Positions 6,031 through 59,931 of a stretch of 64,000 nucleotides of DNA are shown here, one piece after another. The stretch comes from a phage, in the sequence record PX880102.1; one strand, written 5' to 3'. The position numbers were made by a program, and so were the translations under genes. The notes beneath the pieces were generated by a model that was given only the letters and a program-made list of their open reading frames with translations, was not told the origin of the DNA and searched no databases. The first letter of the stretch is position 1. Every line of letters begins with the position of its first letter.

Positions 6031-7231
6031 ATTTTGTAATAATGTCAAACTGTTCTTTAAAGCAGAAGCTTGAATCTTGATGCTGATACAAAAATTCATA
6101 TGCTTTTTCTCGCTCACGGTCATAAAGAGCTCGGTCAGATGACAGTTCTTTAATACGTTCAAATGTTGATTCCATGTCATTTTCATCAAACCAAATGATA
6201 CCGCTATCATGCGAGGTCAAAGGAGTATTATCAACACGGAATTTTAAATTTTCGCCAGTAGATTTCCAAAATACCGGAATTGTTCCACATGCACCAAGCT
6301 CGAGATGAGTATATTCTAAAGAGCGCTGTAGATATTTTTTATCCAACTTACTCAGCTGATAACCAAAACCGGATTTACTCATACGTTCAAGCATTTCGCT
6401 ATTTACATAACGGTCAAGAATTTGCGTTGGCAAATTAGGAGCAATTTTAATTTGGTCTACTTGATGAAGACGATAATACTCGTATGGAATTCCTTTTTCA
6501 TTAATAGGAATGAACGCTGGAGAACGTTCCAGACCTTCCATAATAGTACTTAGCCCAACAGGTTTAAGATGTTTTTCGTGAAAATCAAACATCTGATAAA
6601 AACCTTTCCATGTAGTCGTACGACCAATCCAACGGTTGACATTCATGTTAATTTCAGAAACATCTTTCCAGTAGGTTGATCGAACCTTCGCAATATCCAT
6701 AGGAGGCTGAAAGTTGTATACAGTCGGTGCTTCTTCAATATCATCAAACAGAGAAACTGTTTCTGGATACCATTCTTTCATCAGAACTTTATTAAAATCG
6801 CCATTATCAGAATGACTAAAAATAACATCAGCTCGACGAACAGTTTCTTCTAATCCCAAATTTCGGCGCAAAGAAAGAGAAGAATGGTCATGTTGATAAA
6901 CTACAACACGAACCGAAGGTTTAATGTTATCAATAATTTTTTTATAGTTATTAATAGTGTCTTCTTCAACTGAAGTAGCAGGAACTGAATTGATAATTAG
7001 AATATCACAATCATTTACCAGCTTAAGTGTTTTATCGTATTCTTTTGCCAATAAAACCGGAATTGAAAATGATTTATAATCATGCGCACAGTTACGAGTA
7101 AATGATTTATCTTTAGCATAAACCAAAGTTACTTCATGACCATTTTTAATAAACCAATCACGTTGCTCAAGAGAAAATTTAGTTACACCACAACCTTCAA
7201 GACCTCGAGCCATAAAAATACATACTTTCAT
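6029..7231 (-). CDS. a-gt: DNA alpha-glucosyltransferase
   Basis: 400 aa; N-terminus CIFMARGLEGCGVTKFSLEQRDWF as recalled for T4 a-gt. Confidence 0.9.
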   Translation of the reverse strand: MKVCIFMARGLEGCGVTKFSLEQRDWFIKNGHEVTLVYAKDKSFTRNCAHDYKSFSIPVLLAKEYDKTLKLVNDCDILIINSVPATSVEEDTINNYKKIIDNIKPSVRVVVYQHDHSSLSLRRNLGLEETVRRADVIFSHSDNGDFNKVLMKEWYPETVSLFDDIEEAPTVYNFQPPMDIAKVRSTYWKDVSEINMNVNRWIGRTTTWKGFYQMFDFHEKHLKPVGLSTIMEGLERSPAFIPINEKGIPYEYYRLHQVDQIKIAPNLPTQILDRYVNSEMLERMSKSGFGYQLSKLDKKYLQRSLEYTHLELGACGTIPVFWKSTGENLKFRVDNTPLTSHDSGIIWFDENDMESTFERIKELSSDRALYDREREKAYEFLYQHQDSSFCFKEQFDIITK

Positions 7232-7255
7232 TTAATATCCTCATTGTTTTGGTTT

Positions 7256-12045: not shown

Positions 12046-13859
12046 TGGTGTTTAACCCTATGCATGATTTCTTTATTTTTACCGAGATTAAATCCGCGTT
12101 CGTTCGGATTTCCCAAATAACCGCATGTTCTTCTTATGGTATTCATCTTTTTAGGATCAGTTTCTCCACAAATAGAACAAACAAATCCGTTTTCAGTAGG
12201 AGTCATTTCATGGGTACTTCCGCATGTAAAACATTTATCTACTGGCATATTAACACCAAAATAATCTAAATGTTGTGCAGCATAATCCCACACGGCCTCA
12301 AGACCTTTTAAGTTATTTTTCATATCAGGAAGTTCAACATAAGAAATGTGACCACCTGTCGCAATGAAATGATATGGTGCTTCGCGAGAAATCTTTTCAA
12401 ACGGAGTAATATTTTCTTCTACTGAAACATGGAAACTGTTAGTGTACCAACCTTTATCGGTAACATCCTTTACACTTCCATATTTTTCGGTATCAAGTTT
12501 ACAGAAGCGATAACAAAGGTTTTCAGCAGGAGTAGAATACAAGCTAAAAGCAAACCCAGTTCTTTCAGTCCACTGCTTAAGACGAGCATTCATTTTAGTT
12601 AAAATTTCCTGTCCAATATCACGACCGACAAGAATATTCAATTCGTGAATACCAATGTATCCTAGAGACACTGAACTTCTGCCATTTTTAAATAACTCAA
12701 TTATGTCGTCATCAGGTTTAAGACGAACCCCGAATGCGCCTTCTTGGTAAAGAATAGGAGCAACAGTCGCTTTAACTCCTTTTAAGGAACTAATTCTACA
12801 CATCAAAGCTTCAAAACACAAATCCATTCGTTCATTGAATAATTCAACAAATTTCTGTTCATTGAATTGTGTTCCAATATAAGAATCTAACGCGATGCGA
12901 GGAAGATTCAGTGTTACAACGCCAAGATTATTACGTCCATCAAGAATTTCATTACCAGTCGAATCTTTCCATACGCTCAAGAAACTACGGCAACCCATTG
13001 GAGAAACAGGAATAGATGAGCCGGTGATAACTTTATTGTTCTTAGCTGAAATAATATCAGGATACATTCTTTTGCTTGCACACTCTAAAGCAAGCTGCTT
13101 AATATCATAGTTCGGATCGTCTTTATAAAGATTAACACCTTCTTCAACGAACATAACAAGCTTAGGGAAAATAGGAGTTATCCCATCACGACCAAGACCT
13201 TTAATACGATTTTTCAGAATTGCTTTCTGAATCATTCGTTCAGTCCAGTCAGTTCCTGTACCAAATGTAATTGTTACAAAAGGTGTTTGTCCGTTTGAGC
13301 TAAAGAGAGTATTTACTTCATATTCATAAGCTTGGAATGCATCGTATACATCTTTTTCTGTTTTAGATTGAGCATAATTCAACGCATCAGCGATTTGCCA
13401 TTTTTCTGCATCCTCAATATGTTTTGCATAGGTGCGTTTAACATAAGGAGAAAGTACTTTATCTACATTAGCAAAAGTCGTTCCGCCGTATTGATGGGAA
13501 GCAACCTGTGCAGTAATTTGTGCCATAATTGCAGTAGCAACACCGATTGATTTAGGAGTTTCAATCTGTGCATTACCAAGCTTAAATCCGTTCTCAAGCA
13601 TTCCTTTTAAATCTACTAAACAACAATTAGTAAATGGAAGAGCAGGGGAATAATCAATATCGTGGAAATGAATAATTCCGCTTTCATGCGCTTTCATAAT
13701 AAAAGACGGGACCATATTTTTGGCAATGTGTTTAGACACAATACCAGCCATAAGGTCCCGTTGAGTTGGAAAAACACGAGAATCTTTATTAGCATTCTCG
13801 TTTAAAAGGTCTTTATTAGTTTTATGAATCAATCCTTCAATTTCTTTTTCAATTGTCAT
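12042..13859 (-). CDS. nrdD: anaerobic ribonucleoside-triphosphate reductase
   Basis: 605 aa uninterrupted ORF; C-terminal glycyl-radical motif RRTCGYLG and Cys-rich zinc ribbon; 4-nt overlap with nrdG. Confidence 0.92.
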   Translation of the reverse strand: MTIEKEIEGLIHKTNKDLLNENANKDSRVFPTQRDLMAGIVSKHIAKNMVPSFIMKAHESGIIHFHDIDYSPALPFTNCCLVDLKGMLENGFKLGNAQIETPKSIGVATAIMAQITAQVASHQYGGTTFANVDKVLSPYVKRTYAKHIEDAEKWQIADALNYAQSKTEKDVYDAFQAYEYEVNTLFSSNGQTPFVTITFGTGTDWTERMIQKAILKNRIKGLGRDGITPIFPKLVMFVEEGVNLYKDDPNYDIKQLALECASKRMYPDIISAKNNKVITGSSIPVSPMGCRSFLSVWKDSTGNEILDGRNNLGVVTLNLPRIALDSYIGTQFNEQKFVELFNERMDLCFEALMCRISSLKGVKATVAPILYQEGAFGVRLKPDDDIIELFKNGRSSVSLGYIGIHELNILVGRDIGQEILTKMNARLKQWTERTGFAFSLYSTPAENLCYRFCKLDTEKYGSVKDVTDKGWYTNSFHVSVEENITPFEKISREAPYHFIATGGHISYVELPDMKNNLKGLEAVWDYAAQHLDYFGVNMPVDKCFTCGSTHEMTPTENGFVCSICGETDPKKMNTIRRTCGYLGNPNERGFNLGKNKEIMHRVKHQ

Positions 13860-23776: not shown

Positions 23777-24234
23777 TCAGCCTTATATTCAATAACAGGA
23801 CATACTTTAGCTTTACGAGCTTTTAAAAATTCGACGATAATCGATTTCTTGGGTTGAATAGGAGGTAAACCTTTATACGCTCTATCAATATTTTCTACGT
23901 GTAAAGCATAATCCTTTTTCCATTTATAATCTTTATATTTTTCATGCAAATGTGCAGGAATAACAAATGAACCGATAATAAGTAAAACAACCAAAAGCGC
24001 AAGTATAAATGCCGATGGAAGAAGAGTCCATAAACTACCGAAAATAAGCCAACGTTGTAGGCTTTCTGCACAAATAATTGTTAGCCCTACAAGTATAGCA
24101 CATCCAAAAATAGAAACGAAAAATGTAGGAATGGCAATAGACCAAAAATATGCGCATAGTGTCTTAGGTCGTTGCCATTCATCGTTAAACAATTTGAATA
24201 ATTTATAATGCCAAGAGTTTTCATTAATAATCAT
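23773..24234 (-). CDS. hypothetical multi-pass membrane protein
   Basis: 153 aa, ATG start, several hydrophobic segments. Confidence 0.6.
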   Translation of the reverse strand: MIINENSWHYKLFKLFNDEWQRPKTLCAYFWSIAIPTFFVSIFGCAILVGLTIICAESLQRWLIFGSLWTLLPSAFILALLVVLLIIGSFVIPAHLHEKYKDYKWKKDYALHVENIDRAYKGLPPIQPKKSIIVEFLKARKAKVCPVIEYKAE

Positions 24235-24236
24235 AA

Positions 24237-24758
24237 TTATCCTTTCATTGAAGGCGTAACAGTTGTTAAATACTTAATCATAGCTTCAGCTTCTGATTTT
24301 GATAATGAAATTTCTCCATTGTTTTGACGAATAGAAATAAAATCCGGATGACGGTCACCACCAGCTTTTAAAACACACATATAAGTATCAACTTCATCTT
24401 CAATATTTGAAATGATTGAAGCAGTTCCACATGAATGCGGTTTTTGATAAATCAATGCAGCTTTTCTTCCGCCATTTGACTGTTCATAAACTTTTAATAC
24501 ATCAAACAAATCACTTCTTTTATCAATAGCTAAAATGTTATTTTCATCTTCAATGTTAAATCCTTCGGATACTTCATAAAGTGTCACCCATAAATCGCCA
24601 ATATCAATAACAGCGTTCACTTTTCCATGACTTTCAAGAGCATGACAAATTTTCTTGATTTCGTCATAACTCATTTTAATAATATCATCTCCTTGACTAA
24701 GAAAGATGTCATTTTTAAATTCAACACGAATTAAACCACTTCCACTTGAAATAAACAT
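24237..24758 (-). CDS. hypothetical protein (paralogue of next gene)
   Basis: 173 aa, ATG start; C-terminus resembles 24765..25322 product. Confidence 0.6.
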   Translation of the reverse strand: MFISSGSGLIRVEFKNDIFLSQGDDIIKMSYDEIKKICHALESHGKVNAVIDIGDLWVTLYEVSEGFNIEDENNILAIDKRSDLFDVLKVYEQSNGGRKAALIYQKPHSCGTASIISNIEDEVDTYMCVLKAGGDRHPDFISIRQNNGEISLSKSEAEAMIKYLTTVTPSMKG

Positions 24759-27280: not shown

Positions 27281-27862
27281 CTAACCGAGCTTTTTAGTTA
27301 ATTCATTCCAATGTTTTCTACACAAAGAAACATAAATTTCATCACCAATACAGATTTGATTACCTTCTTTAACTGGTGTTCCATCTTCCATTAATCGAGC
27401 TGTCATAATCGCTTTTTTACCACAATGACAAACTGCCTTTAGTTCAATAAGTTTATCTGCAATCGCTAAAAGTTCTTTAGAACCTTCAAATAATTTTCCA
27501 GCGAAATCAGTCCTTAGCCCATAAGCCATAACAGGAACATTATATGTATCAACAATTCGGCTTAATTGATGCACCTGTTCAGTTTTTAAAAACTGAGCTT
27601 CATCTACAAATACGCAATGAATATCTTTTTGTGCTTCAGCCCATTTATAGAACTCAAAAATATCCATATCATCCGTAATAATATTCGCTTCCTGCTTAAT
27701 TCCAATACGAGAAACGACTTCACAGACAGAATCGCGAGTATCAATAGCAGGCTTAAGAACTAATACACTCATTCCACGTTCTTTATAATTATGTGCAGCA
27801 GTCAAAAGAGAAGCAGATTTTCCAGCATTCATTGCTGCATAAGTAAAAATTAAACTCGCCAT
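27281..27862 (-). CDS. tk: thymidine kinase
   Basis: 193 aa; P-loop MNAGKSASLL and C-terminal zinc knuckle, typical TK1 family. Confidence 0.92.
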   Translation of the reverse strand: MASLIFTYAAMNAGKSASLLTAAHNYKERGMSVLVLKPAIDTRDSVCEVVSRIGIKQEANIITDDMDIFEFYKWAEAQKDIHCVFVDEAQFLKTEQVHQLSRIVDTYNVPVMAYGLRTDFAGKLFEGSKELLAIADKLIELKAVCHCGKKAIMTARLMEDGTPVKEGNQICIGDEIYVSLCRKHWNELTKKLG

Positions 27863-27871
27863 ATCACCTTC

Positions 27872-28057
27872 TTAAAGCGTATTCACATAAGCTATTAATT
27901 CGTTTTCTTTCTTATCAAACCGATCAGCAAATTCTTCTTGCTGTTCGGGAGATAGCGGGCCGTATTCATCATAAAAGGTGTTTGCTTCTGTATGCTCATC
28001 TAGAAGTTCATGGATAAGCTCAAACAATTTATCTTTTTGTTCTTTACTCAGACTCAT
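27872..28057 (-). CDS. hypothetical acidic protein
   Basis: 61 aa, ATG start. Confidence 0.55.
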   Translation of the reverse strand: MSLSKEQKDKLFELIHELLDEHTEANTFYDEYGPLSPEQQEEFADRFDKKENELIAYVNTL

Positions 28058-28227
28058 ATATTAATTTCCAGGAGTTTTAAAATAATTCGCTTTTGCTTAA
28101 ATATTTCCATAGTTAAATGACCAGTATCTTTTTGACCGATTCCAATGGCAAAACCTTTATTGACAGCGAGTTCAATTAAATTATCAAGCTCACGTAACAC
28201 TTCATATTGTAACTCAGAACTATTCAT
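28054..28227 (-). CDS. small protein (56 aa), below ORF-track threshold
   Basis: Own translation MNSSELQYEVLRELDNLIELAVNKGFAIG...; ATGA overlaps at both ends. Confidence 0.45.
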   Translation of the reverse strand: MNSSELQYEVLRELDNLIELAVNKGFAIGIGQKDTGHLTMEIFKQKRIILKLLEINI

Positions 28228-28430
28228 TTTGGTTTACCTTCTTTAACGAAATCAGGATAAGGATAAAATCCTGAATAAAATCCTTCACCTTTATGATTGA
28301 TGCATCCTTTATTAGAACAATAGCACCAATAATCGAAATCACAAGCCATTTCATCATTACATAAAGCAAAAACAACTGGCCATTCACACTTTTCGCAGTG
28401 GGCATTTTTAAGAATACTAGTTTGGCTCAT
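28224..28430 (-). CDS. hypothetical Cys-rich protein
   Basis: Track start is TTG; ATG at 28430 (ATGA coupling) gives 68 aa with CEKCEW...CDFDYWCYC...GC. Confidence 0.5.
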   Translation of the reverse strand: MSQTSILKNAHCEKCEWPVVFALCNDEMACDFDYWCYCSNKGCINHKGEGFYSGFYPYPDFVKEGKPK

Positions 28431-28639
28431 AACCATGTAACCTTTAAGCAATATTCTTCTACATGTTGTTTACGACCTTTCTTATCAATAAAGGTATATT
28501 CAACGAATGTTCCAATATAGTCTTTATCTACATCATGTGGGCTATTAATTGGGCATTTAGTACGGCAAATGCGTTCCCATTGACGAATAATTTCCACTTT
28601 GTTTTTAGGATCAAACGGATGAGGGTAATGTACTTTCAT
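28427..28639 (-). CDS. hypothetical protein
   Basis: 70 aa, ATG start. Confidence 0.55.
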   Translation of the reverse strand: MKVHYPHPFDPKNKVEIIRQWERICRTKCPINSPHDVDKDYIGTFVEYTFIDKKGRKQHVEEYCLKVTWL

Positions 28640-29090
28640 AATCCACCACTATTAAATCAATATCAGGAGTAAACATGTCAATTAATTTAGAAACCTTATC
28701 CCAATCACCACCGGCAATACCGCAACCGATGCGTGGAATGTAAATTACTGGTTTAAACAAAAGGGTTTCTGCCTGTAGATTTAATTCTATCATACAGTTT
28801 ACTAAAGCACCATAATCAAGATTAGGACCCGGTTCGTATTGCGTATACAAATTATAGCACATACTAAATCCTGTAGGATTATGTTTAAAAACAATAGACA
28901 TATCGCCTAATTTATCACGAGAACCGTACTCGGTAGTGGTTTTATCTATTTCTAAAATTTTGGGATAGGCTCTTGCTAATTGACCTGCTACGCCAGAGCC
29001 CATTGTGTGGAAGCAATTGCACCCGTGCGCAATAATATTACCTTGAAGAAATAGGGCGACAATATCGCCCTTGATATATTTTACAATCAT
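28611..29090 (-). CDS. macro-domain-like protein (putative ADP-ribose binding/processing)
   Basis: 159 aa; HGCNCFHTMGSGVAGQL and PRIGCGIAGGDW resemble the two glycine-rich macro-domain motifs; by eye only. Confidence 0.55.
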   Translation of the reverse strand: MIVKYIKGDIVALFLQGNIIAHGCNCFHTMGSGVAGQLARAYPKILEIDKTTTEYGSRDKLGDMSIVFKHNPTGFSMCYNLYTQYEPGPNLDYGALVNCMIELNLQAETLLFKPVIYIPRIGCGIAGGDWDKVSKLIDMFTPDIDLIVVDYESTLPSSV

Positions 29091-29428
29091 CTAGTACTCA
29101 ATCCTCGATTATAAGAATCTACTAAACGGTCAACCATTGAATGACAAGCGGCTTTATCTTTCTCCTCCGCAACTGAACATTCTAAGGTATTCCACTTTTT
29201 AGCATATCGTTTTAACAATGTATCATTTTTGTATCTGCTTGATTTATCTCTTTCTCCGTCTTTATATGCATATATTAATTTCTGCGCAAATTCAGCTTGG
29301 CATGCTTTATTTTTCCCACAATAATCCGCGGCAGTACGGTTTACATACTCTCTAATTTCAGTATATGATGTATCTGCTAACGCAGAAAATGAAATTAATC
29401 CTATACATAAAACCAAAATTTTAGTCAT
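29087..29428 (-). CDS. small secreted/periplasmic protein (cleavable signal peptide)
   Basis: 113 aa; MTKILVLCIGLISFSALA signal peptide; four Cys in mature part. Confidence 0.6.
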   Translation of the reverse strand: MTKILVLCIGLISFSALADTSYTEIREYVNRTAADYCGKNKACQAEFAQKLIYAYKDGERDKSSRYKNDTLLKRYAKKWNTLECSVAEEKDKAACHSMVDRLVDSYNRGLSTR

Positions 29429-30462: not shown

Positions 30463-30492
30463 ATTATACCACAGTCAAGAGGAAAAGTAAAC
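30463..30492 (-). promoter_or_regulatory. early promoter of regB
   Basis: Minus strand GTTTAC-N17-TGGTATAAT. Confidence 0.6.
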
Positions 30493-32640: not shown

Positions 32641-33114
32641 TTATTTGAATGATTTGACGTACTGAATAGAGCCTTTACTATTCACGAAAGCGATTTTACC
32701 ATTTTTGTTATACATTGTAGCAGTACGCTGATAACCATAAGTTTGTTTACCAGATTGATAACCAACTAATGCAAAATTATCTTCGCCCATTTTATTCTGT
32801 TTGGCGCGGATACGTTCATGACCGTGCGCCATAAGAACCTTAGCATCGCCAGTTGAAATTGATCTACGAGTTTTTTCATCTTCAACTGTATTAACAAAGT
32901 CGTCAAATGAATCAAATTTAGCATGAGATTTATTATACAGTTTTCCATCTACTGCATAATTATATCCCTGTACATCCATCTCAACTTCTGTACCATCATC
33001 CAATACAGCAGTAATTTTTTGACCTTTTTTAAATTTCAAAAGATCAGTAAAAGATTCAGCAATAATTTGAGAATTAATAGCTGCTTCAGTGATAAATTCT
33101 TGATATGTTTTCAT
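32641..33114 (-). CDS. internal-protein-like virion protein with capsid targeting sequence (IP-A)
   Basis: 157 aa; N-terminus MKTYQEFITEA matches T4 IP capsid-targeting sequence MKTYQEFIAEA; ATG start. Confidence 0.7.
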   Translation of the reverse strand: MKTYQEFITEAAINSQIIAESFTDLLKFKKGQKITAVLDDGTEVEMDVQGYNYAVDGKLYNKSHAKFDSFDDFVNTVEDEKTRRSISTGDAKVLMAHGHERIRAKQNKMGEDNFALVGYQSGKQTYGYQRTATMYNKNGKIAFVNSKGSIQYVKSFK

Positions 33115-34130: not shown

Positions 34131-34571
34131 TTAAAAGAGGCTGTTCATTATTCGGTAAAGTGAAGGACCCATCACATATTGCCACTGAGTACGAGGAATA
34201 AGGGCAAAAGCATCCATCTCTGGAATCATAACACCATCTTTATTTTCAAAATAAGACTCGCAATGGCAATTTCTAAACATCTCATGCTCTACTGGAATCG
34301 TATAATAAAATAACTGTAAGTCTTTATTACTAGAATATTTAAATACACCTAGGTCTTCTAGAAGGTCTGGATTATAATTGTTAAAACCAGTCTCTTCTGA
34401 GCATTCTCTTTTTGCAGCTTCCAGTGCATTCAAATCAGAACTTTCTACACGCCCCTTTGGAATATCCCAGCGATGTGCCATCATTCCAGGTTTACGAGAA
34501 CCAGTAACTCGTCCCATAAATAAATCTTTATCTTCTGTCATAAAGATAATACCAGCTGATAATGTTTTCAT
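34131..34571 (-). CDS. nudE: Nudix hydrolase NudE
   Basis: ATG at 34571 with AGGAAA RBS and ATGA coupling (146 aa); Nudix box GRVESSDLNALEAAKRECSEETGF. Confidence 0.85.
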   Translation of the reverse strand: MKTLSAGIIFMTEDKDLFMGRVTGSRKPGMMAHRWDIPKGRVESSDLNALEAAKRECSEETGFNNYNPDLLEDLGVFKYSSNKDLQLFYYTIPVEHEMFRNCHCESYFENKDGVMIPEMDAFALIPRTQWQYVMGPSLYRIMNSLF

Positions 34572-35056
34572 TTTAATTTCCTGCATTCAGTGATAAAATT
34601 ATTTAAATTTTGAGTATATTTCTTTTCATCAAAAATCTTTTGTTGTCTGCGCATCCGCCATGGCATTTCAATGAACATGTACCATATTCCTGATAATATT
34701 GATGCTGTAAAAATATTAACAAGTATGGTTAAAAGAATCCAATCTCCTATTCTGTCCATTGGATTTTTTATAAAAAAGTAAAATACGAATGATGACACAG
34801 GAAGACTAATGATATACCACAGAATCATAATCTTATCTGTGAACCATTCAGCATTCGTTAACTTAGCACGACCATTATGAATACACACGAATTTATCATC
34901 TGTTACCATAGATGGCTTAACTGCTTGATATCCCATTCTAAACTCCCTAATTAATCGTTTCTTTGTATCTTCAGAACAGCCACTCCAGTCAACTCCATCA
35001 ACTGAAATGCCATCGTCCCCATCATCTAAATCATACCAGCGAGTTTTTAAAATCAT
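34568..35056 (-). CDS. small membrane protein, paralogue family member 1 (e.2-like)
   Basis: 162 aa, ATG start; TM segments plus basic tail ending CRKLK. Confidence 0.6.
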   Translation of the reverse strand: MILKTRWYDLDDGDDGISVDGVDWSGCSEDTKKRLIREFRMGYQAVKPSMVTDDKFVCIHNGRAKLTNAEWFTDKIMILWYIISLPVSSFVFYFFIKNPMDRIGDWILLTILVNIFTASILSGIWYMFIEMPWRMRRQQKIFDEKKYTQNLNNFITECRKLK

Positions 35057-39382: not shown

Positions 39383-39458
39383 TGGTCGAGGCAGTAGGGA
39401 TCGAACCTACGACCTAGGACTTAGAAGGTCCTTGCTCTTCCTTCTGAGCTATGCCCCG
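39383..39458 (-). tRNA. tRNA-Arg (anticodon UCU)
   Basis: Hand-folded cloverleaf; anticodon loop CUUCUAA; T-loop GGTTCGATC; encoded CCA. Confidence 0.85.
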
Positions 39459-39462
39459 TAAT

Positions 39463-39538
39463 TGGGGTGACCGATGGGAGTCGAACCCATGACTACGAGA
39501 ATCACAATCTCGAGTTCTACCAACTGAACTACGGCCAC
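39463..39538 (-). tRNA. tRNA-His (anticodon GUG)
   Basis: Hand-folded cloverleaf; anticodon loop UUGUGAU; discriminator C; CCA encoded; no G at -1. Confidence 0.75.
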
Positions 39539-39652
39539 ATTAATACCTACTCCAACAATCAAGATGTCTTCACACGAAATTAAGAGAAGAGTGATCAGTT
39601 CAACCCCTATAATCGCGTCAAGTAGATATTATTGTGACAGTTGTCACAAATT

Positions 39653-39727
39653 TGGCGGACGTGATAGGATTCGAACCTATAACCAATCGCTTAACAGGCG
39701 ATCGCTCTGCCATTGAGCTACACATCC
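39653..39727 (-). tRNA. tRNA-Asn (anticodon GUU)
   Basis: Hand-folded cloverleaf; anticodon stem ATCGC/GCGAT, loop CUGUUAA; CCA encoded. Confidence 0.8.
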
Positions 39728-39731
39728 AAAT

Positions 39732-39818
39732 TGGTGGGGAGTGATGGAGTCGAACCACCCGAGTCGCAATGACAATGGATTTACAGTCCACACCGCTACC
39801 TCTACGGGATAACTCCCC
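39732..39818 (-). tRNA. tRNA-Tyr (anticodon GUA), class II
   Basis: 87 nt; anticodon loop CUGUAAA; long variable arm; acceptor GGGGAGT/ACTCCCC; D-arm pairing not fully resolved by hand. Confidence 0.7.
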
Positions 39819-39831
39819 TTAATTCTTAATT

Positions 39832-39906
39832 TGGTGGCCCTGGGTGGAATTGAACCACCATCTGGCGATTATGAGTCGCTTGCTTGAACCTTCCAGCTAC
39901 AGGGCC
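39832..39906 (-). tRNA. tRNA-Ile (anticodon CAU, presumably lysidine-modified) or tRNA-Met
   Basis: Anticodon loop CUCAUAA; T4 tRNA-Ile is known to carry a CAU-derived anticodon; CCA encoded. Confidence 0.75.
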
Positions 39907-39907
39907 T

Positions 39908-39983
39908 TGGTGCTGATTGACGGAATCGAACCGCCGACCTTCTCATTACAAGTGAGTTGCTCTACCTACTGAGCTAAATCAGC
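39908..39983 (-). tRNA. tRNA-Thr (anticodon UGU)
   Basis: Anticodon loop CUUGUAA; T-loop GGTTCGATT; CCA encoded. Confidence 0.85.
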
Positions 39984-39988
39984 AAAAC

Positions 39989-40078
39989 TGGCGGAGGCGA
40001 TAGGATTTGAACCTATGAGTCGCCGGAGCGACTGCCGGTTTTCAAGACCGGTGCATTAAACCACTCTGCCACGCCTCC
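39989..40078 (-). tRNA. tRNA-Ser (anticodon UGA), class II
   Basis: 90 nt; anticodon loop CUUGAAA; long variable arm; 2-nt spacer to tRNA-Pro as in the T4 Pro-Ser dimeric precursor. Confidence 0.85.
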
Positions 40079-40080
40079 AG

Positions 40081-40154
40081 TCTCCATACAAGGATTTGAA
40101 CCTTGGACCTCCTGATCCCAAATCAGGCGCTCTACCAAACTGAGCTACACGGAG
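40081..40154 (-). tRNA. tRNA-Pro (anticodon UGG)
   Basis: Anticodon loop UUUGGGA; CCA not encoded (as recalled for T4 tRNA-Pro). Confidence 0.85.
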
Positions 40155-40164
40155 TAAATTAAAT

Positions 40165-40238
<74 letters not shown>

Positions 40239-40243
40239 AAATT

Positions 40244-40330
40244 TGGTGCGAGAAGTGGGACTCGAACCCACAAGGAAATCATTCCGCAGCATTTTAAGTG
40301 CTGTGCCTTTACCAATTTGACCATTCTCGC
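40244..40330 (-). tRNA. tRNA-Leu (anticodon UAA), class II
   Basis: 87 nt; anticodon loop CUUAAAA; long variable arm; CCA encoded. Confidence 0.85.
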
Positions 40331-40336
40331 GCTATA

Positions 40337-40945
40337 TTATTTATTACGTGAAAAAGACTGTTCTATCAATTCTGGACACTTTCGTTCTATCCATTTTCTA
40401 GCTTTTTGTGGGCTTATACCTATTATTTTAGCAGCTTTACTAACCCATCCAAATTTAGAATAATCGATTTTAACTAATTCTTCGTAAATTTCATCAGTTA
40501 AAATCTTTTCATTAATATTTACCAGTAAATGATATAATTTATTATCATTAGCAATTTTAATGAATCTTTTATAGTTTCCGCCTTTACTTAAACCTAATGA
40601 AGTAATTGCAGATGATATAGTAGCCGAATTTAATAACGCGTTTAAAATTTCTTCATCACTAACATTATAACGCTTTTTATTATTTTTAATATTTTTACCA
40701 GCAAAAGTATCAGTTTGCGAATGGCAGTTTGGACATAATAATCTTAAATTAGATTTAAGATGATTTTTGTTATTTCCATCAATATGGTCTAATTGCAGAA
40801 CAATATGCTTATTTTGCCATTTTGAAATTTTACAAATTGCACACTCATATGGAAAAATATTTTCTTTTATTATTTTGTCTTTCAGCTTTCCTGTACTAAA
40901 ATTTGGATGTTTTCCTTCAAAAATTTCAGCTAATTTAGTATCCAT
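40337..40945 (-). CDS. HNH-family endonuclease (free-standing homing-endonuclease-like)
   Basis: ATG at 40945 gives 202 aa (track start is TTG at 40969); motif HIVLQLDHIDGNNKNHLKSNLRLLCPNCH plus upstream CAIC; stop 6 nt before tRNA-Leu. Confidence 0.8.
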   Translation of the reverse strand: MDTKLAEIFEGKHPNFSTGKLKDKIIKENIFPYECAICKISKWQNKHIVLQLDHIDGNNKNHLKSNLRLLCPNCHSQTDTFAGKNIKNNKKRYNVSDEEILNALLNSATISSAITSLGLSKGGNYKRFIKIANDNKLYHLLVNINEKILTDEIYEELVKIDYSKFGWVSKAAKIIGISPQKARKWIERKCPELIEQSFSRNK

Positions 40946-41055
40946 AATATAATTCCCAATTATTAACAAAGGCTCTTAAGCAAGAACCCTTGATGATAGA
41001 GGGTATTAATCAGTGCGATATGAGTTAATAATAACAAATAATTCTTAAAGCATAT

Positions 41056-48118: not shown

Positions 48119-48613
48119 ATGGAAGGTTCTTCTATCGACGTCACCTTTACCGCTCAATTAGAAACAGGTGAAACGTTAGTATCTATAAATATAACTAGTT
48201 ACGAAGAAACTCCTGGGGTTTTAGTAGAAGAAAATCGTTTATATGGAACGTATGAATCTGTATTTGGATTTGGAAATGATGCGTTGAAATATCGTTTAGA
48301 TAATGAATTTAAAACTGCTGCTTCATGGGAAGACCTTCCAACTGATTCTAATACTCAGTTATATTTATGGAAAGCTCCTCAAAACCTCCAGAAGACATTC
48401 ACTTACGAAGTAACATTAATATATGACTATCAAGAACAAGGTGAATCTGGAGGTTCTGGCAGTAATTCTAGGTCATCTTCTGACACTACTGAACCAACTA
48501 ATCCTCCAGCTCCAATAAGAAAAACTCTTGTTAAAAATTATACAAAAACTATAGTTGGAAATTGGAGTCGTTGGGCCAATAAATTGAGAAGCTACGTGTA
48601 TGAGAGGCCATAA
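48119..48613 (+). CDS. hypothetical protein gp5.1-like
   Basis: ATG at 48119 with AGGAGAA RBS gives 164 aa (track start is TTG inside gene 5). Confidence 0.6.
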   Translation: MEGSSIDVTFTAQLETGETLVSINITSYEETPGVLVEENRLYGTYESVFGFGNDALKYRLDNEFKTAASWEDLPTDSNTQLYLWKAPQNLQKTFTYEVTLIYDYQEQGESGGSGSNSRSSSDTTEPTNPPAPIRKTLVKNYTKTIVGNWSRWANKLRSYVYERP

Positions 48614-48907
48614 ATGTCAGGATTAAGTTATGATAAGTGTGTTACTGCCGGCCATGAAGCATGGCCTCCAACAGTTGTGAATGCTACACAAAGTAAAGTA
48701 TTCACTGGAGGAATTGCTGTTCTCGTAGCAGGCGATCCAATTACAGAACATACAGAAATTAAAAAGCCATATGAAACACATGGCGGAGTGACACAACCTA
48801 GAACTTCTAAGGTATATGTCACTGGAAAGAAAGCTGTTCAAATGGCTGATTCAATATCATGCGGTGATACAGTGGCTCAGGCATCATCTAAAGTATTCAT
48901 TAAATAG
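48614..48907 (+). CDS. 5.4: PAAR-repeat spike-tip protein gp5.4
   Basis: 97 aa; PAAR-like Cys/His pattern; directly after 5.1. Confidence 0.8.
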
Positions 48908-58384: not shown

Positions 58385-59931
58385 GTAACAATACATATCA
58401 GCACGTATCAAATGAATCAAAATACGTTAAATTCGATCCTACTGGATCGAATTTTCCTGACACTGTCACGACAGTGCAGTCTGCATTATCAAAAATAAGT
58501 AATATCGGCGTAAATGGTATTCCTGATGCAACTATGGAAGTTAAAGGAATAGCAATGATTGCGTCAGAGCAAGAGGTTTTAGATGGAACTAATAATTCTA
58601 AAATCGTTACACCCGCTACATTAGCAACAAGATTATTGTATCCAAATGCTACTGAAACTAAATATGGTTTAACGCGCTATTCAACAAATGAAGAAACTTT
58701 AGAAGGCTCAGATAATAATTCGTCGATAACTCCACAAAAATTGAAATACCATACTGACGATGTATTCCAAAACAGGTATTCATCTGAATCATCAAATGGA
58801 GTTATTAAAATATCATCTACACCTGCGGCTTTGGCTGGTGTAGATGATACTACGGCAATGACTCCATTAAAAACCCAAAAACTTGCAATAAAATTAATTT
58901 CACAAATAGCTCCTTCAGAAGACACAGCATCAGAATCTGTTAGAGGTGTAGTTCAGTTATCAACTGTCGCTCAAACTCGTCAAGGAACTCTTCGCGAAGG
59001 ATATGCAATTTCTCCGTATACCTTTATGAATTCTGTTGCAACACAAGAATATAAGGGTGTTATACGTTTAGGAACACAATCGGAAATTAACAGTAATTTA
59101 GGAGATGTTGCAGTAACAGGCGAAACATTAAATGGTCGAGGAGCTACTGGTTCTATGCGCGGTGTAGTAAAATTAACGACGCAAGCCGGTATTGCCCCCG
59201 AAGGTGATGGCTCTGGAGCATTAGCATGGAACGCAGATGTAATTAATACTCGCGGTGGACAAACTATTAACGGTTCTTTAAATTTAGACCATCTTACAGC
59301 AAATGGAATTTGGTCACGCGGCGGTATGTGGAAAAATGGCGATCAACCTGTTGCCACTGAAAGATATGCGTCTGAAAGGGTTCCAGTTGGAACTATTATG
59401 ATGTTTGCGGGTGATTCTGCACCTCCAGGTTGGATTATGTGCCATGGTGGAACCGTGTCAGGAGATCAATATCCTGATTATAGAAACACAGTTGGAACAA
59501 GATTTGGTGGTGATTGGAATAACCCTGGCATTCCTGATATGCGAGGTCTTTTCGTCAGAGGAGCTGGCACAGGAGGTCATATTTTAAATCAACGAGGACA
59601 AGATGGTTATGGAAAGGATAGACTTGGCGTAGGATGTGACGGAATGCATGTTGGCGGTGTTCAAGCACAACAAATGTCATACCATAAACATGCTGGTGGC
59701 TGGGGAGAATACCAAAGACATGAAGCTCCATTTGGCGCGTCCGTTTATCAAGGATATCTTGGAACTAGAAAATATGCCGACTGGGATAACGCTTCATACT
59801 TCACTAATGATGGATTTGAATTAGGTGGACCGAGAGATGCCCTTGGTACACTTAATCGTGAAGGATTAATTGGTTATGAAACTAGACCATGGAATATATC
59901 ATTAAACTATATTATTAAAATTCATTACTAA
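58381..59931 (+). CDS. 12: short tail fiber protein gp12
   Basis: 516 aa; ATGA overlap with gene 11. Confidence 0.92.

What the first reader, a model, noticed from the sequence alone, without database searches (positions are those of the whole stretch)
28611..29090. Macro-domain-like protein in the tk-vs region
The 159-aa product contains HGCNCFHTMGSGVAGQL and PRIGCGIAGGDW, which resemble the two glycine-rich ADP-ribose-binding motifs of macro domains. Macro domains reverse or bind ADP-ribosylation; in a phage this could counter ADP-ribosylating defences (for example DarT-type DNA ADP-ribosylation) or process ADP-ribose-derived immune signals. The assignment is by eye only.
Basis: inference. 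Interest (0 to 1): 0.55.

Follow-up and report, generated by a model that had tools for sequence, protein, structure and literature searches.

The report
Phage T4-type tk.4 macrodomain gene
This is the well-known tk.4 gene of a T4-like phage, a small macrodomain enzyme whose T4 counterpart was recently shown to protect the phage from a bacterial defence that ADP-ribosylates DNA, so the finding is correct but not new.

Summary
Window 28611-29090 (minus strand) is an intact 159-aa ORF between tk.3 and vs in a Tequatrovirus genome, so it is gene tk.4. It is a real macrodomain:
- Pfam Macro matches at E=3.7e-8, above the gathering score.
- The AlphaFold model has pLDDT 94.

A T4 tk.4 knockout becomes sensitive to DarTG2, and the gene was named adfM (bioRxiv 10.1101/2025.11.20.689424). 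The A1pp/macro assignment dates from 2006.

Three nuances came out of this work:
- **Divergent allele.** The window copy is only 58% identical to T4/T2 Tk.4. It sits in flanks that are 97-100% identical to T4 and is under purifying selection (dN/dS 0.06-0.14). It has not been tested experimentally.
- **Not a captured DarG.** The family is a stand-alone macrodomain with no toxin partner. It has an invariant Gln84 where DarG and TARG1 have the catalytic Lys, as in Streptomyces SCO6735, which cleaves thymidine-linked ADP-ribose.
- **Not close to PhiKZ "AdfM".** That protein is Lys-type and only about 22% identical.

Verdict: already known, low interest.

The parts
28611..29090 (-). tk.4 coding sequence (159 aa), a stand-alone macrodomain protein and positional orthologue of T4 tk.4/adfM
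   Evidence: ORF. Pfam Macro match. 58% identity to T4 Tk.4 at E=8e-71. T4 gene order tk.3-tk.4-vs.
28977..29027 (-). Loop-1 motif H22-G-C-N25-C-F-H-T-M-G-S-G-V-A-G-Q-L. It is the first ADP-ribose-binding glycine-rich loop and includes the conserved His and Asn.
   Evidence: H22, G23, N25, C26, G33 and A35 are invariant in 47 homologues. N25 aligns with PhiKZ AdfM N23, the active-site Asn described in PMC13309987. H22 and T29 align with Poa1p H23 and S30.
28839..28853 (-). N80-L-Y-T-Q84 strand end. Q84 occupies the position of the catalytic Lys of TARG1 (K84) and DarG (K80).
   Evidence: The profile-to-TARG1 alignment places q84 opposite K84, and MAFFT agrees. Q84 is invariant in 47 phage/metagenome homologues and in 80/80 bacterial homologues, and was not part of the search pattern. 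In SCO6735, Gln85 is at the same position and Q85A abolishes activity (PMC9411070).
28701..28736 (-). Loop-2 motif P119-R-I-G-C-G-I-A-G-G-D-W130, the second, diphosphate-binding glycine-rich loop. A126 stands where TARG1 has D125.
   Evidence: Read directly from the sequence. It aligns with SCO6735 HLPRIGCGLAGGTW and BT1257 HMPRIGCGLAGGKW. T4 has PRIGAGIGKGNW.
28632..29033 (-). Divergent allele cassette: the tk.4 body is 43-78% identical in nucleotides to T4, inside flanks that are 92-100% identical
   Evidence: Sliding 60-nt identity profile against T4. Window versus T4: dS 1.9, dN 0.39.
29087..29428 (-). vs (valyl-tRNA synthetase modifier), the upstream gene. Its stop overlaps the tk.4 start (ATGA), which suggests co-transcription and translational coupling.
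   Evidence: ORF coordinates. Annotation transfer.
28427..28639 (-). tk.3 homologue, the downstream gene. Its start overlaps the 3' end of tk.4 by 29 nt.
30463..30491 (-). Sigma-70-type promoter-like site (TTTACT-17-TATAAT with TG) upstream of regB. It is a possible early promoter for a regB-vs.1-vs-tk.4 transcript. This is a consensus match only.
   Evidence: The number of such sites in the region does not exceed the shuffled expectation, so the evidence is weak.
29053..29071 (-). GC-rich hairpin GGGCGAT-ATT-GTCGCCC within codons 7-13 of tk.4, conserved in both allele classes and in a Dhakavirus copy
   Evidence: Its significance is unknown, and it overlaps the conserved peptide KGDIVAL.

Best explanation
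The ORF is gene tk.4 of a T4-like phage (Tequatrovirus). It encodes a stand-alone macrodomain of the ALC1-like (TARG1/DarG/SCO6735/Poa1p) class.

Most likely function: an anti-DarT factor (AdfM). The host DarTG2 defence releases the DarT2 toxin, which ADP-ribosylates thymidines in single-stranded phage DNA. Tk.4 would bind the ADP-ribose through its two glycine-rich loops and hydrolyse the thymidine-ribose bond. This would restore a replicable template and release free ADP-ribose.

Most likely chemistry: SCO6735-type rather than DarG/TARG1-type. An invariant Gln84, with H22 and N25, positions the distal ribose and a water molecule. There is no Lys nucleophile and no Lys/Asp dyad.

The window carries a divergent allele, 58% identical to the T4/T2 protein, brought in by recombination.

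What is shown and what is inferred:
- Shown here: macrodomain identity, class, conserved active-site residues, orthologous position and purifying selection.
- Shown in the literature for the T4 allele only: the anti-DarTG2 phenotype.
- Inferred: that this allele has the same activity, and the hydrolytic mechanism itself. No Tk.4 biochemistry has been published.
For: **Macrodomain identity and class**
- Pfam Macro above the gathering score.
- AF2 model with pLDDT 94.2.
- Foldseek top hits are TARG1, BT1257, Poa1p and DarG at E 7e-10 to 9e-8.
- DarG profiles match the N-terminal macro part: NCBIfam E=6.5e-7 and PADLOC E=3.4e-7.

**Orthology to T4 tk.4**
- Same position between tk.3 and vs, and 58% identity at E=8e-71.

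**Published function of relatives**
- T4 tk.4 is the only HIDEN-SEQ hit on DarTG2, and the knockout is sensitised (bioRxiv 10.1101/2025.11.20.689424).
- T2 and T4 lacking adfN remain DarTG2-resistant (PMC11825919). T2 carries the T4-type tk.4.
- SCO6735 has Gln at the catalytic position and the same PRIGCGLAGGxW loop. It cleaves dT-ADPr DNA and protects from DarT, and Q85A is dead (PMC9411070).

**Evidence that this allele is functional**
- Q84 is invariant in the family.
- The window allele keeps all 16 invariant family residues and lies closer to the family consensus than the T4 allele does.
- dN/dS is 0.06-0.14 within the allele class.
Against: - No experiment exists for this allele class. 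All three tested or classical phages (T4, T2, T6) carry the other, 155-aa allele.
- For T4 Tk.4 the evidence is genetic only. The authors themselves say enzymatic removal 'seems likely'.
- The protein lacks the Lys that is catalytic in DarG, TARG1 and PhiKZ AdfM.
- It lacks the lysine-rich mobile loop (K89, K94) that SCO6735 is proposed to use for DNA binding. The window has Q84-YEPGPNLDY.
- It resembles Poa1p, an ADP-ribose-1''-phosphate phosphatase, about as closely as it resembles DarG.
- The Q84-to-SCO6735 Q85 correspondence is transitive, via TARG1 K84. A direct alignment of that segment to 5E3B was not obtained.
Confidence: 0.7

Rival explanations
1. Small-molecule ADP-ribose metabolite processing. 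The protein would act mainly as an ADP-ribose-1''-phosphate phosphatase (Poa1p-like) or an O-acetyl-ADP-ribose deacetylase. It would clear by-products of RNA repair or sirtuin reactions, or soluble ADPr-derived signals, and would not act on DNA.
For: - RefSeq and PHROG name it 'phosphatase' with an 'A1pp phosphatase motif'.
- H22 and T29 align with Poa1p H23 and S30, the residues mutated in PDB entries 6LFS and 6LFT.
- There is a weak NCBIfam OAADPr-deacetylase hit at E=0.0058.
Against: - The only in vivo phenotype known for the orthologue is DarTG2 sensitivity.
- The OAADPr-deacetylase model scores 16.5 bits against a cutoff of 291.
- The 'phosphatase' label is inherited from the old A1pp domain name, not from an assay.
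- Such activities are common side-activities of macrodomains (established knowledge) and would not exclude DNA de-ADP-ribosylation.
Confidence: 0.1
2. Same fold, different target. The window-type allele would have diverged in specificity from the T4-type allele. It might counter other DarT2 variants or another host ADP-ribosyltransferase acting on DNA, RNA or protein. The two alleles would then be kept in Tequatrovirus populations by varying host defences.
For: - There are two deep allele classes of similar frequency: 313 records at 90% identity or more to the window type, and 224 at 90% or more to the T4 type.
- Recombination boundaries are sharp, and phage F1 carries a chimeric copy.
- Loop 2 differs: GCGIAGGDW against GAGIGKGNW.
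- Allele-specific activity is documented for AdfA and AdfB (PMC11481870; PMC11825919) and for Alt in T4 against Bas37.
Against: - All invariant active-site residues are shared by both alleles.
- A hydrolase that acts on the product (dT-ADPr) need not track toxin sequence. PhiKZ AdfM counters DarT2 proteins that are only about 20% identical to each other.
- Mosaic replacement of small cassettes is common throughout this window, so dimorphism alone is not evidence of selection for new specificity.
Confidence: 0.12
3. Non-catalytic action. The protein would neutralise DarT2 by binding it directly (interaction-inhibition), or would simply bind or sequester ADP-ribosylated sites, without hydrolysis.
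For: - Catalytically dead SCO6735 Q85A still inhibits DarT efficiently by interaction (PMC9411070).
- ICP1 AdfB works by binding DarT.
- Tk.4 lacks the Lys nucleophile of DarG and TARG1.
Against: - Invariance of H22, N25, Q84 and both glycine loops across phages and across bacteria that have no DarT neighbour argues for a conserved enzymatic site, not a toxin-binding surface.
- There is no DarG-like C-terminal DarT-binding domain.
Confidence: 0.05
4. Housekeeping of the phage's own ADP-ribosylation. The protein would reverse or limit modifications made by the phage transferases Alt, ModA and ModB.
For: T4-type phages encode three ADP-ribosyltransferases (PMC8120803), so a phage-encoded eraser would be a plausible partner.
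Against: - Alt and Mod modify arginine. Macrodomains of this class are known for Asp/Glu-, nucleic-acid- and phosphate-linked ADPr, not Arg-ADPr (established knowledge).
- tk.4 is not linked to alt or mod genes in the genome.
- tk.4 is dispensable on E. coli K-12 without DarTG2.
Confidence: 0.03

Closest known systems
T4 Tk.4 / AdfM (anti-DarT factor Macrodomain; NP_049723; bioRxiv 10.1101/2025.11.20.689424)
   Same: - Same locus between tk.3 and vs.
- Same size class (155 against 159 aa).
- 58% identity at E=8e-71.
- Identical N-terminal 36 residues apart from 4 changes.
- Same invariant H22, N25 and Q84.
   Different: - The central and C-terminal parts are diverged: dN 0.39, dS saturated.
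- Loop 2 is GCGIAGGDW against GAGIGKGNW.
- The window copy has a 4-residue C-terminal extension that overlaps tk.3.
- The window allele is nearer the family consensus.
- The DarTG2 phenotype has been shown only for the T4 allele.
Streptomyces coelicolor SCO6735 (PDB 5E3B; PMC9411070)
   Same: - Stand-alone ALC1-like macrodomain with no cognate DarT.
- Gln at the TARG1-K84 position.
- No Asp125 equivalent.
- Near-identical loop 2: PRIGCGLAGGTW against PRIGCGIAGGDW.
- Profile E=1.3e-15.
- SCO6735 hydrolyses thymidine-linked ADPr on DNA.
   Different: - It is bacterial and SOS-regulated.
- It has a longer mobile loop with K89 and K94 for DNA binding, which Tk.4 lacks.
- Sequence identity is low, and only local alignments were obtained.
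DarG antitoxin macrodomain (M. tuberculosis 5M3I, T. aquaticus 5M31; NCBIfam NF048014)
   Same: - The same substrate is expected (dT-ADPr made by DarT2).
- The conserved active-site Asn is shared.
   Different: - Tk.4 has Gln, not the catalytic Lys80.
- It has no C-terminal DarT-binding domain.
- It has no adjacent darT.
- The NCBIfam score is 28.9 bits against a cutoff of 250.
- Bacterial relatives of Tk.4 have no conserved toxin neighbour.
PhiKZ gp104 'AdfM' (chimallivirus anti-DarT2 macrodomain; PMC13309987)
   Same: - It is a phage-encoded stand-alone macrodomain of about 160 aa that counters DarTG2.
- Asn23 aligns with N25.
   Different: - It is only about 22% identical, with pairwise BLASTP E=0.001.
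- It is Lys-type (K78), like DarG.
- It is imported into the phage nucleus and expressed late.
- Its biochemistry has been shown, whereas for Tk.4 it has not.
Bacteroides thetaiotaomicron BT1257 (PDB 2FG1/2AFC) and yeast Poa1p (6LFQ)
   Same: - The H-x-C-N motif is shared by both. The Gln and PRIGCGLAGGxW motifs are shared with BT1257.
   Different: - BT1257 has no known function.
- Poa1p is characterised as an ADP-ribose-1''-phosphate phosphatase, not a DNA de-ADP-ribosylase.

Membership tests
Macro domain (Pfam PF01661) | Profile HMM match at or above the curated gathering score | tested here: met
   33.8 bits against 22, E=3.7e-8, covering profile positions 2-117 of 118
Macro domain (Pfam PF01661) | Three-layer alpha/beta/alpha macro fold | tested here: met
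   [not shown]
Macro domain (Pfam PF01661) | ADP-ribose binding | not testable with these tools
   Both glycine-rich loops are present and conserved, but binding needs an assay.
ALC1-like (TARG1/DarG/SCO6735/Poa1p) macrodomain class | Closest sequence and structure neighbours belong to this class and not to the MacroD, PARG or macroH2A classes | tested here: met
   [not shown]
DarG antitoxin (NCBIfam NF048014 equivalog) | Full-length match above the curated cutoff, including the C-terminal DarT-binding domain | tested here: not met
   28.9 bits against a cutoff of 250. Only profile positions 2-142 of 338 are matched, and the protein is 159 aa.
DarG antitoxin (NCBIfam NF048014 equivalog) | Catalytic lysine (Taq DarG K80 = TARG1 K84) | tested here: not met
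   Gln84 is at this position. It is invariant in the family.
DarG antitoxin (NCBIfam NF048014 equivalog) | Operon with a darT toxin gene | tested here: not met
   The neighbours in the window are vs and tk.3. In 80 bacterial loci no neighbour family recurs in more than 8 loci.
T4 Tk.4 / AdfM orthologous group | Positional orthology (between tk.3 and vs) and significant full-length similarity | tested here: met
T4 Tk.4 / AdfM orthologous group | Required for phage growth on a DarTG2-expressing host | not testable with these tools
   Shown for T4 only. T2 and T6 share the T4 allele. No data exist for the window-type allele.
SCO6735-type (Gln) DNA de-ADP-ribosylase | Gln at the TARG1-K84 position and absence of the Asp125 equivalent | tested here: met
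   Q84 and A126 by alignment to TARG1. SCO6735 Gln85 is stated to be equivalent to TARG1 K84. The correspondence is transitive, not a direct alignment.
SCO6735-type (Gln) DNA de-ADP-ribosylase | Lys-bearing extended mobile loop after the Gln (K89, K94), proposed to bind DNA | tested here: not met
   The window sequence after Q84 is YEPGPNLDY, with no lysines.
SCO6735-type (Gln) DNA de-ADP-ribosylase | Hydrolysis of thymidine-linked ADP-ribose on ssDNA | not testable with these tools
   Needs an in vitro assay.
Poa1p-like ADP-ribose-1''-phosphate phosphatase | Equivalents of Poa1p His23 and Ser30, the residues mutated in PDB 6LFS and 6LFT | tested here: inconclusive
   H22 aligns with H23, and T29 aligns with S30. 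T29 is variable in bacterial homologues: T 43, A 14, N 5 and others. The Poa1p paper is not in the library.

The most novel reading that the evidence does not exclude
The two deeply diverged tk.4 alleles that circulate in Tequatrovirus would be functionally distinct counter-defence variants kept by balancing selection. One is the window type (159 aa, consensus-like loop 2). The other is the T4/T2/T6 type (155 aa, derived loop 2). They might cover different DarT2 families or a different nucleic-acid ADP-ribosylating defence. In addition, the Tk.4 family would represent an independent, Gln-based recruitment of a housekeeping bacterial macrodomain, not a captured DarG antitoxin. Its catalytic mechanism would differ from both DarG and PhiKZ AdfM.
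Probability: 0.15. Interest if true: 0.5.

Novelty: already known. Interest (0 to 1): 0.22.

Why it matters
The gene illustrates a now-established theme: phages carry ADP-ribose erasers to undo DNA ADP-ribosylation by DarTG toxin-antitoxin defences. For this window the practical value is annotation. The ORF should be called tk.4/adfM-like macrodomain rather than 'phosphatase' or 'hypothetical protein', as many GenBank records have it.

The modest added value lies in three observations:
- The experimentally characterised T4 allele is the derived one, and roughly half of sequenced Tequatrovirus genomes carry an untested allele only 58% identical to it.
- The family has a Gln, not a Lys, at the catalytic position, so its chemistry is probably SCO6735-like and not DarG-like, which is the comparison made in the preprint.
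- The two phage proteins both named 'AdfM' (T4 Tk.4 and PhiKZ gp104) belong to different macrodomain subfamilies.

These points are useful for anyone doing biochemistry on AdfM or predicting DarTG2 sensitivity of therapeutic T4-like phages.

Tried and rejected
- It was rerun without that row.
- **No direct 5E3B alignment at Gln85.** I tried to get a direct residue alignment of the Q84 region to SCO6735 (5E3B) by querying PDB with the C-terminal 89 residues. Only the loop-2 segment aligned. The Q84-Q85 equivalence therefore rests on the TARG1 bridge.
- **Poa1p paper unavailable.** I searched for the Poa1p structural paper to check its catalytic residues, but it is not in the library.
- **CmdTAC paper not informative.** I checked the CmdTAC mRNA ADP-ribosyltransferase paper for a role of tk.4 or macrodomains. 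It contains only unrelated reference-list mentions.
- **MAFFT offset.** In the small alignment MAFFT offsets the PhiKZ 'PTK78' motif by two columns from 'YTQ84'. I relied on motif and numbering correspondence instead.
- **No DarT-like partner found.** I looked for a conserved DarT-like partner next to 80 bacterial homologues and found none. No DarT profile was available in the sandbox, so the test was for any recurrent neighbour, not for DarT specifically.
- **Promoter scan not enriched.** The scan gave no enrichment over shuffles (13 sites against 17.2 expected). The proposed early promoter is only a consensus match.
- **'Decaying gene' idea rejected.** I considered and rejected the idea that the allele is decaying. 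The ORF is intact, all invariant residues are kept, and dN/dS is 0.06-0.14.

Full report
**1. Observation**

An ATG-initiated ORF of 159 codons lies at 28611..29090 on the minus strand. Its product contains both quoted motifs: HGCNCFHTMGSGVAGQL at residues 22-38 and PRIGCGIAGGDW at residues 119-130.

The gene is flanked by thymidine kinase (27281-27862) and, upstream on the coding strand, by the vs homologue (29087-29428). The vs stop codon overlaps the ORF's start (ATGA). The 3' end of the ORF overlaps the next gene, tk.3 (28427-28639), by 29 nt.

The region is 98.7% identical to Shigella phage CM8 and to hundreds of other Tequatrovirus genomes. The whole window is collinear with T4 positions 30,595-96,193. 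In T4 nomenclature the gene is tk.4.

**2. Is it a macrodomain?**

Yes.

Sequence evidence:
- Pfam Macro (PF01661) matches residues 22-136 across nearly the full model at 33.8 bits (gathering score 22) and E=3.7e-8.
- PHROG 335 matches at E=2.6e-71.
- DarG models from NCBIfam and PADLOC match the protein at about E=5e-7, over the macro part only.
- PDB sequence relatives are all macrodomains: BT1257, Poa1p, SCO6735, DarG and TARG1.

Structural evidence:
- An AlphaFold2 model built on a 47-sequence alignment has pLDDT 94.2 and pTM 0.88.
- Foldseek against PDB gives TARG1, BT1257, Poa1p and DarG as the top hits, with E 7e-10 to 9e-8 and TM 0.7-0.8.

The protein therefore belongs to the ALC1-like (TARG1/DarG/SCO6735/Poa1p) class.

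**3. What is already known**

- tk.4 orthologues were matched to the A1pp (macro) domain in 2006 (PMC1524935).
- T4 RefSeq annotates the gene as 'phosphatase; contains A1pp phosphatase motif'.
- GenBank records variously call this exact allele 'macro domain protein', 'Appr-1-p processing protein', 'phosphatase' or 'hypothetical protein'.
- Macro domains occur in about 41% of myoviruses (PMC9503650).
- A November 2025 preprint (bioRxiv 10.1101/2025.11.20.689424) found tk.4 as the single significant transposon-sequencing hit when a T4 mutant library infected a DarTG2-expressing host. It showed that a clean tk.4 knockout sensitises T4 to DarTG2, and it named the gene adfM. The authors infer, but do not show, enzymatic removal of ADP-ribose from DNA.
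- Earlier work had shown that T2 and T4 remain DarTG2-resistant without AdfN and AdfA, and it predicted a further factor (PMC11825919).

**4. The window copy is a different allele from the one tested**

The window protein is only 58% identical to T4 Tk.4 (155 aa). A 60-nt sliding comparison with T4 gives the following identities:

| Segment | Nucleotide identity to T4 |
|---|---|
| tk | 97-100% |
| tk.3 | 92-98% |
| vs, vs.1, regB | 93-100%, apart from one 60-nt window at 85% that contains a 6-nt indel |
| tk.4 body (about 28632-29033) | 43-78% |

Synonymous divergence between the two alleles is saturated, with dS about 1.9 and dN 0.39. This is an allelic replacement by recombination and not in-place drift.

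Further points on the two allele classes:
- Phage vB_EcoM_F1 carries a chimera, with T4-type residues 15-19 on a window-type body. This shows intragenic exchange between the classes.
- The two classes are about equally common in the phage collection. 313 records are at least 90% identical to the window type, and 224 are at least 90% identical to the T4 type.
- T2 (100% identical to T4) and T6 (155 aa) carry the T4 type. Every phage with a published DarTG2 phenotype therefore has the other allele.
- The window type is not degenerate. It retains all 16 family-invariant residues.
- It is consistently closer to distant family members than the T4 allele is, at 40-46% against 32-43%.
- Within its class dN/dS is 0.06-0.14.
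- Its loop 2 (GCGIAGGDW) matches the family consensus and the loops of SCO6735 and BT1257, whereas the T4 loop (GAGIGKGNW) is the unusual one.

**5. Mechanism**

I used the human TARG1 sequence as a reference, after verifying it as exact against PDB 2LGR. The alignment shows the following:
- The family-invariant Gln84 sits opposite TARG1 Lys84, the catalytic residue. TARG1 K84 is equivalent to DarG Lys80.
- Ala126 sits opposite TARG1 Asp125.
- Gln84 is invariant in 47 phage and metagenome homologues.
- It is also invariant in 80 of 80 bacterial homologues. Position 84 was not part of the pattern used to retrieve those loci, so this is an independent result.

The same Lys-to-Gln replacement defines Streptomyces SCO6735. 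There, Gln85 is stated to be equivalent to TARG1 K84 and DarG K80, and Q85A abolishes activity. That enzyme efficiently removes thymidine-linked ADP-ribose from DNA and protects cells from DarT. A water-mediated mechanism was proposed for it (PMC9411070). SCO6735 also shares the loop PRIGCGLAGGTW.

N25 aligns with the active-site Asn of DarG (N22) and of PhiKZ AdfM (N23). H22 aligns with Poa1p H23 and TARG1 H32.

My best reading is a glycohydrolase that binds ADP-ribose with the two glycine-rich loops and uses Gln84, N25 and H22 to position the distal ribose and a water molecule. It would cleave thymidine-ADP-ribose made by DarT2 on single-stranded phage DNA.

Two cautions apply:
- Tk.4 lacks the lysine-bearing mobile loop that SCO6735 is proposed to use for DNA binding.
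- No Tk.4 biochemistry exists.

**6. Membership versus working like**

The protein works like a DarG macrodomain but is not a DarG, for four reasons:
- The NCBIfam equivalog scores 28.9 bits against a cutoff of 250 and covers only positions 2-142 of 338.
- There is no C-terminal DarT-binding domain.
- The catalytic Lys is absent.
- There is no darT neighbour.

Its bacterial relatives are 33-44% identical and occur in Rhodobacterales, Desulfobacterales, Planctomycetota, Bacteroidota and other groups. 75 of 80 are stand-alone ORFs of 199 aa or less. No neighbouring gene family recurs in more than 8 of 80 loci, and those 8 reflect local Rhodobacterales synteny. The family therefore looks like a recruited housekeeping-type macrodomain and not a captured antitoxin.

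The other phage protein named AdfM is PhiKZ gp104, which has been shown biochemically to remove dT-ADPr (PMC13309987). It is only about 22% identical to the window protein and is Lys-type (N23, K78). The two 'AdfM' proteins are thus separate recruitments from within the macrodomain superfamily.

**7. Rival explanations**

- **Small-molecule processing.** A role as an ADP-ribose-1''-phosphate phosphatase or OAADPr deacetylase is suggested by the historical 'phosphatase' label and by the similarity to Poa1p. It has no in vivo support and would be compatible with a side-activity.
- **Changed specificity.** A change of specificity between the allele classes cannot be excluded, given the precedent of allele-specific AdfA, AdfB and Alt. 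However, the active site is conserved, and a product-directed hydrolase need not track toxin sequence.
- **Non-catalytic toxin binding.** This is possible by analogy with SCO6735 Q85A. It does not explain the strict conservation of active-site residues in bacteria that lack DarT.
- **Reversal of the phage's own Alt/Mod arginine ADP-ribosylation.** This is unlikely on chemical grounds.

**8. Verdict**

The finding is real and correctly interpreted, but it is ordinary. It is a known gene of a model-phage family, with a known domain assignment and a recently published function for its orthologue.

What is not yet in the literature I could search:
- the allele dimorphism;
- the derived state of the T4 allele;
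- the Gln-type, SCO6735-like active site;
- the lack of close relationship to PhiKZ AdfM.

These are refinements, not surprises. Novelty: already known. Interest: low.

Noticed in passing
window 27863-28425: The tk.1/tk.2 slot between tk and tk.3 has no nucleotide match to T4. It holds three small ORFs (27872-28057, 28054-28227, 28224-28451) where T4 has two. It is a second replaced cassette directly next to the divergent tk.4 allele.
   Followed up: partly
window 29053-29071 and 29075-29115 (minus strand): A GC-rich hairpin, GGGCGAT-ATT-GTCGCCC, lies in codons 7-13 of tk.4. It is conserved in both allele classes and in a Dhakavirus copy whose neighbouring codons have diverged. A second predicted hairpin pairs the tk.4 start codon region with upstream sequence in the end of vs. 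It could bear on translational coupling or mRNA processing.
   Followed up: partly
L090 (phage vB_EcoM_F1 tk.4) and L001 2912-3391 (phage teqskov tk.4): The F1 tk.4 is a chimera, with T4-type residues 15-19 (AEGKN) on a window-type body. The teqskov copy carries G31D in the near-invariant first glycine of the GxG loop, which might impair ADP-ribose binding.
   Followed up: no
window 39383-40330: The tRNA cluster has ten genes: Arg, His, Asn, Tyr, Met/Ile(CAT), Thr, Ser, Pro, Gly and Leu. His, Asn and Tyr are not in T4. T4's tRNA-Gln and the segB homing endonuclease gene are absent, and 40334-40949 has no T4 match.
   Followed up: partly
window 32641-33114 (minus strand): This 157-aa ORF begins MKTYQEFITEA, the N-terminal motif shared by T4 internal head proteins. 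It lies between denV and vs.8 in a segment with no T4 match. T4's ipII and ipIII are absent from their usual place between denV and e. It is probably an alternative internal protein and so possibly an anti-defence cargo (compare on Bas37).
   Followed up: no
window 7222-7247, 12045, 13321-13324, 23778-24739, 48610-48615: Compared with T4, the homing-endonuclease genes mobB, mobC, I-TevII (the nrdD intron) and segC are missing. The mobD slot is replaced by 962 nt of unrelated sequence.
   Followed up: no
window 34131-34586 (minus strand): The nudE homologue is present. T4 annotates it as a Nudix hydrolase active on ADP-ribose. It could dispose of the free ADP-ribose released by Tk.4, although no linkage was tested.
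   Followed up: no
window 59181-59778: A 598-nt stretch inside the gene 12 (short tail fibre) region has no T4 match, and the surrounding baseplate and fibre block is only 88-90% identical. This looks like a host-range-related mosaic.
   Followed up: no
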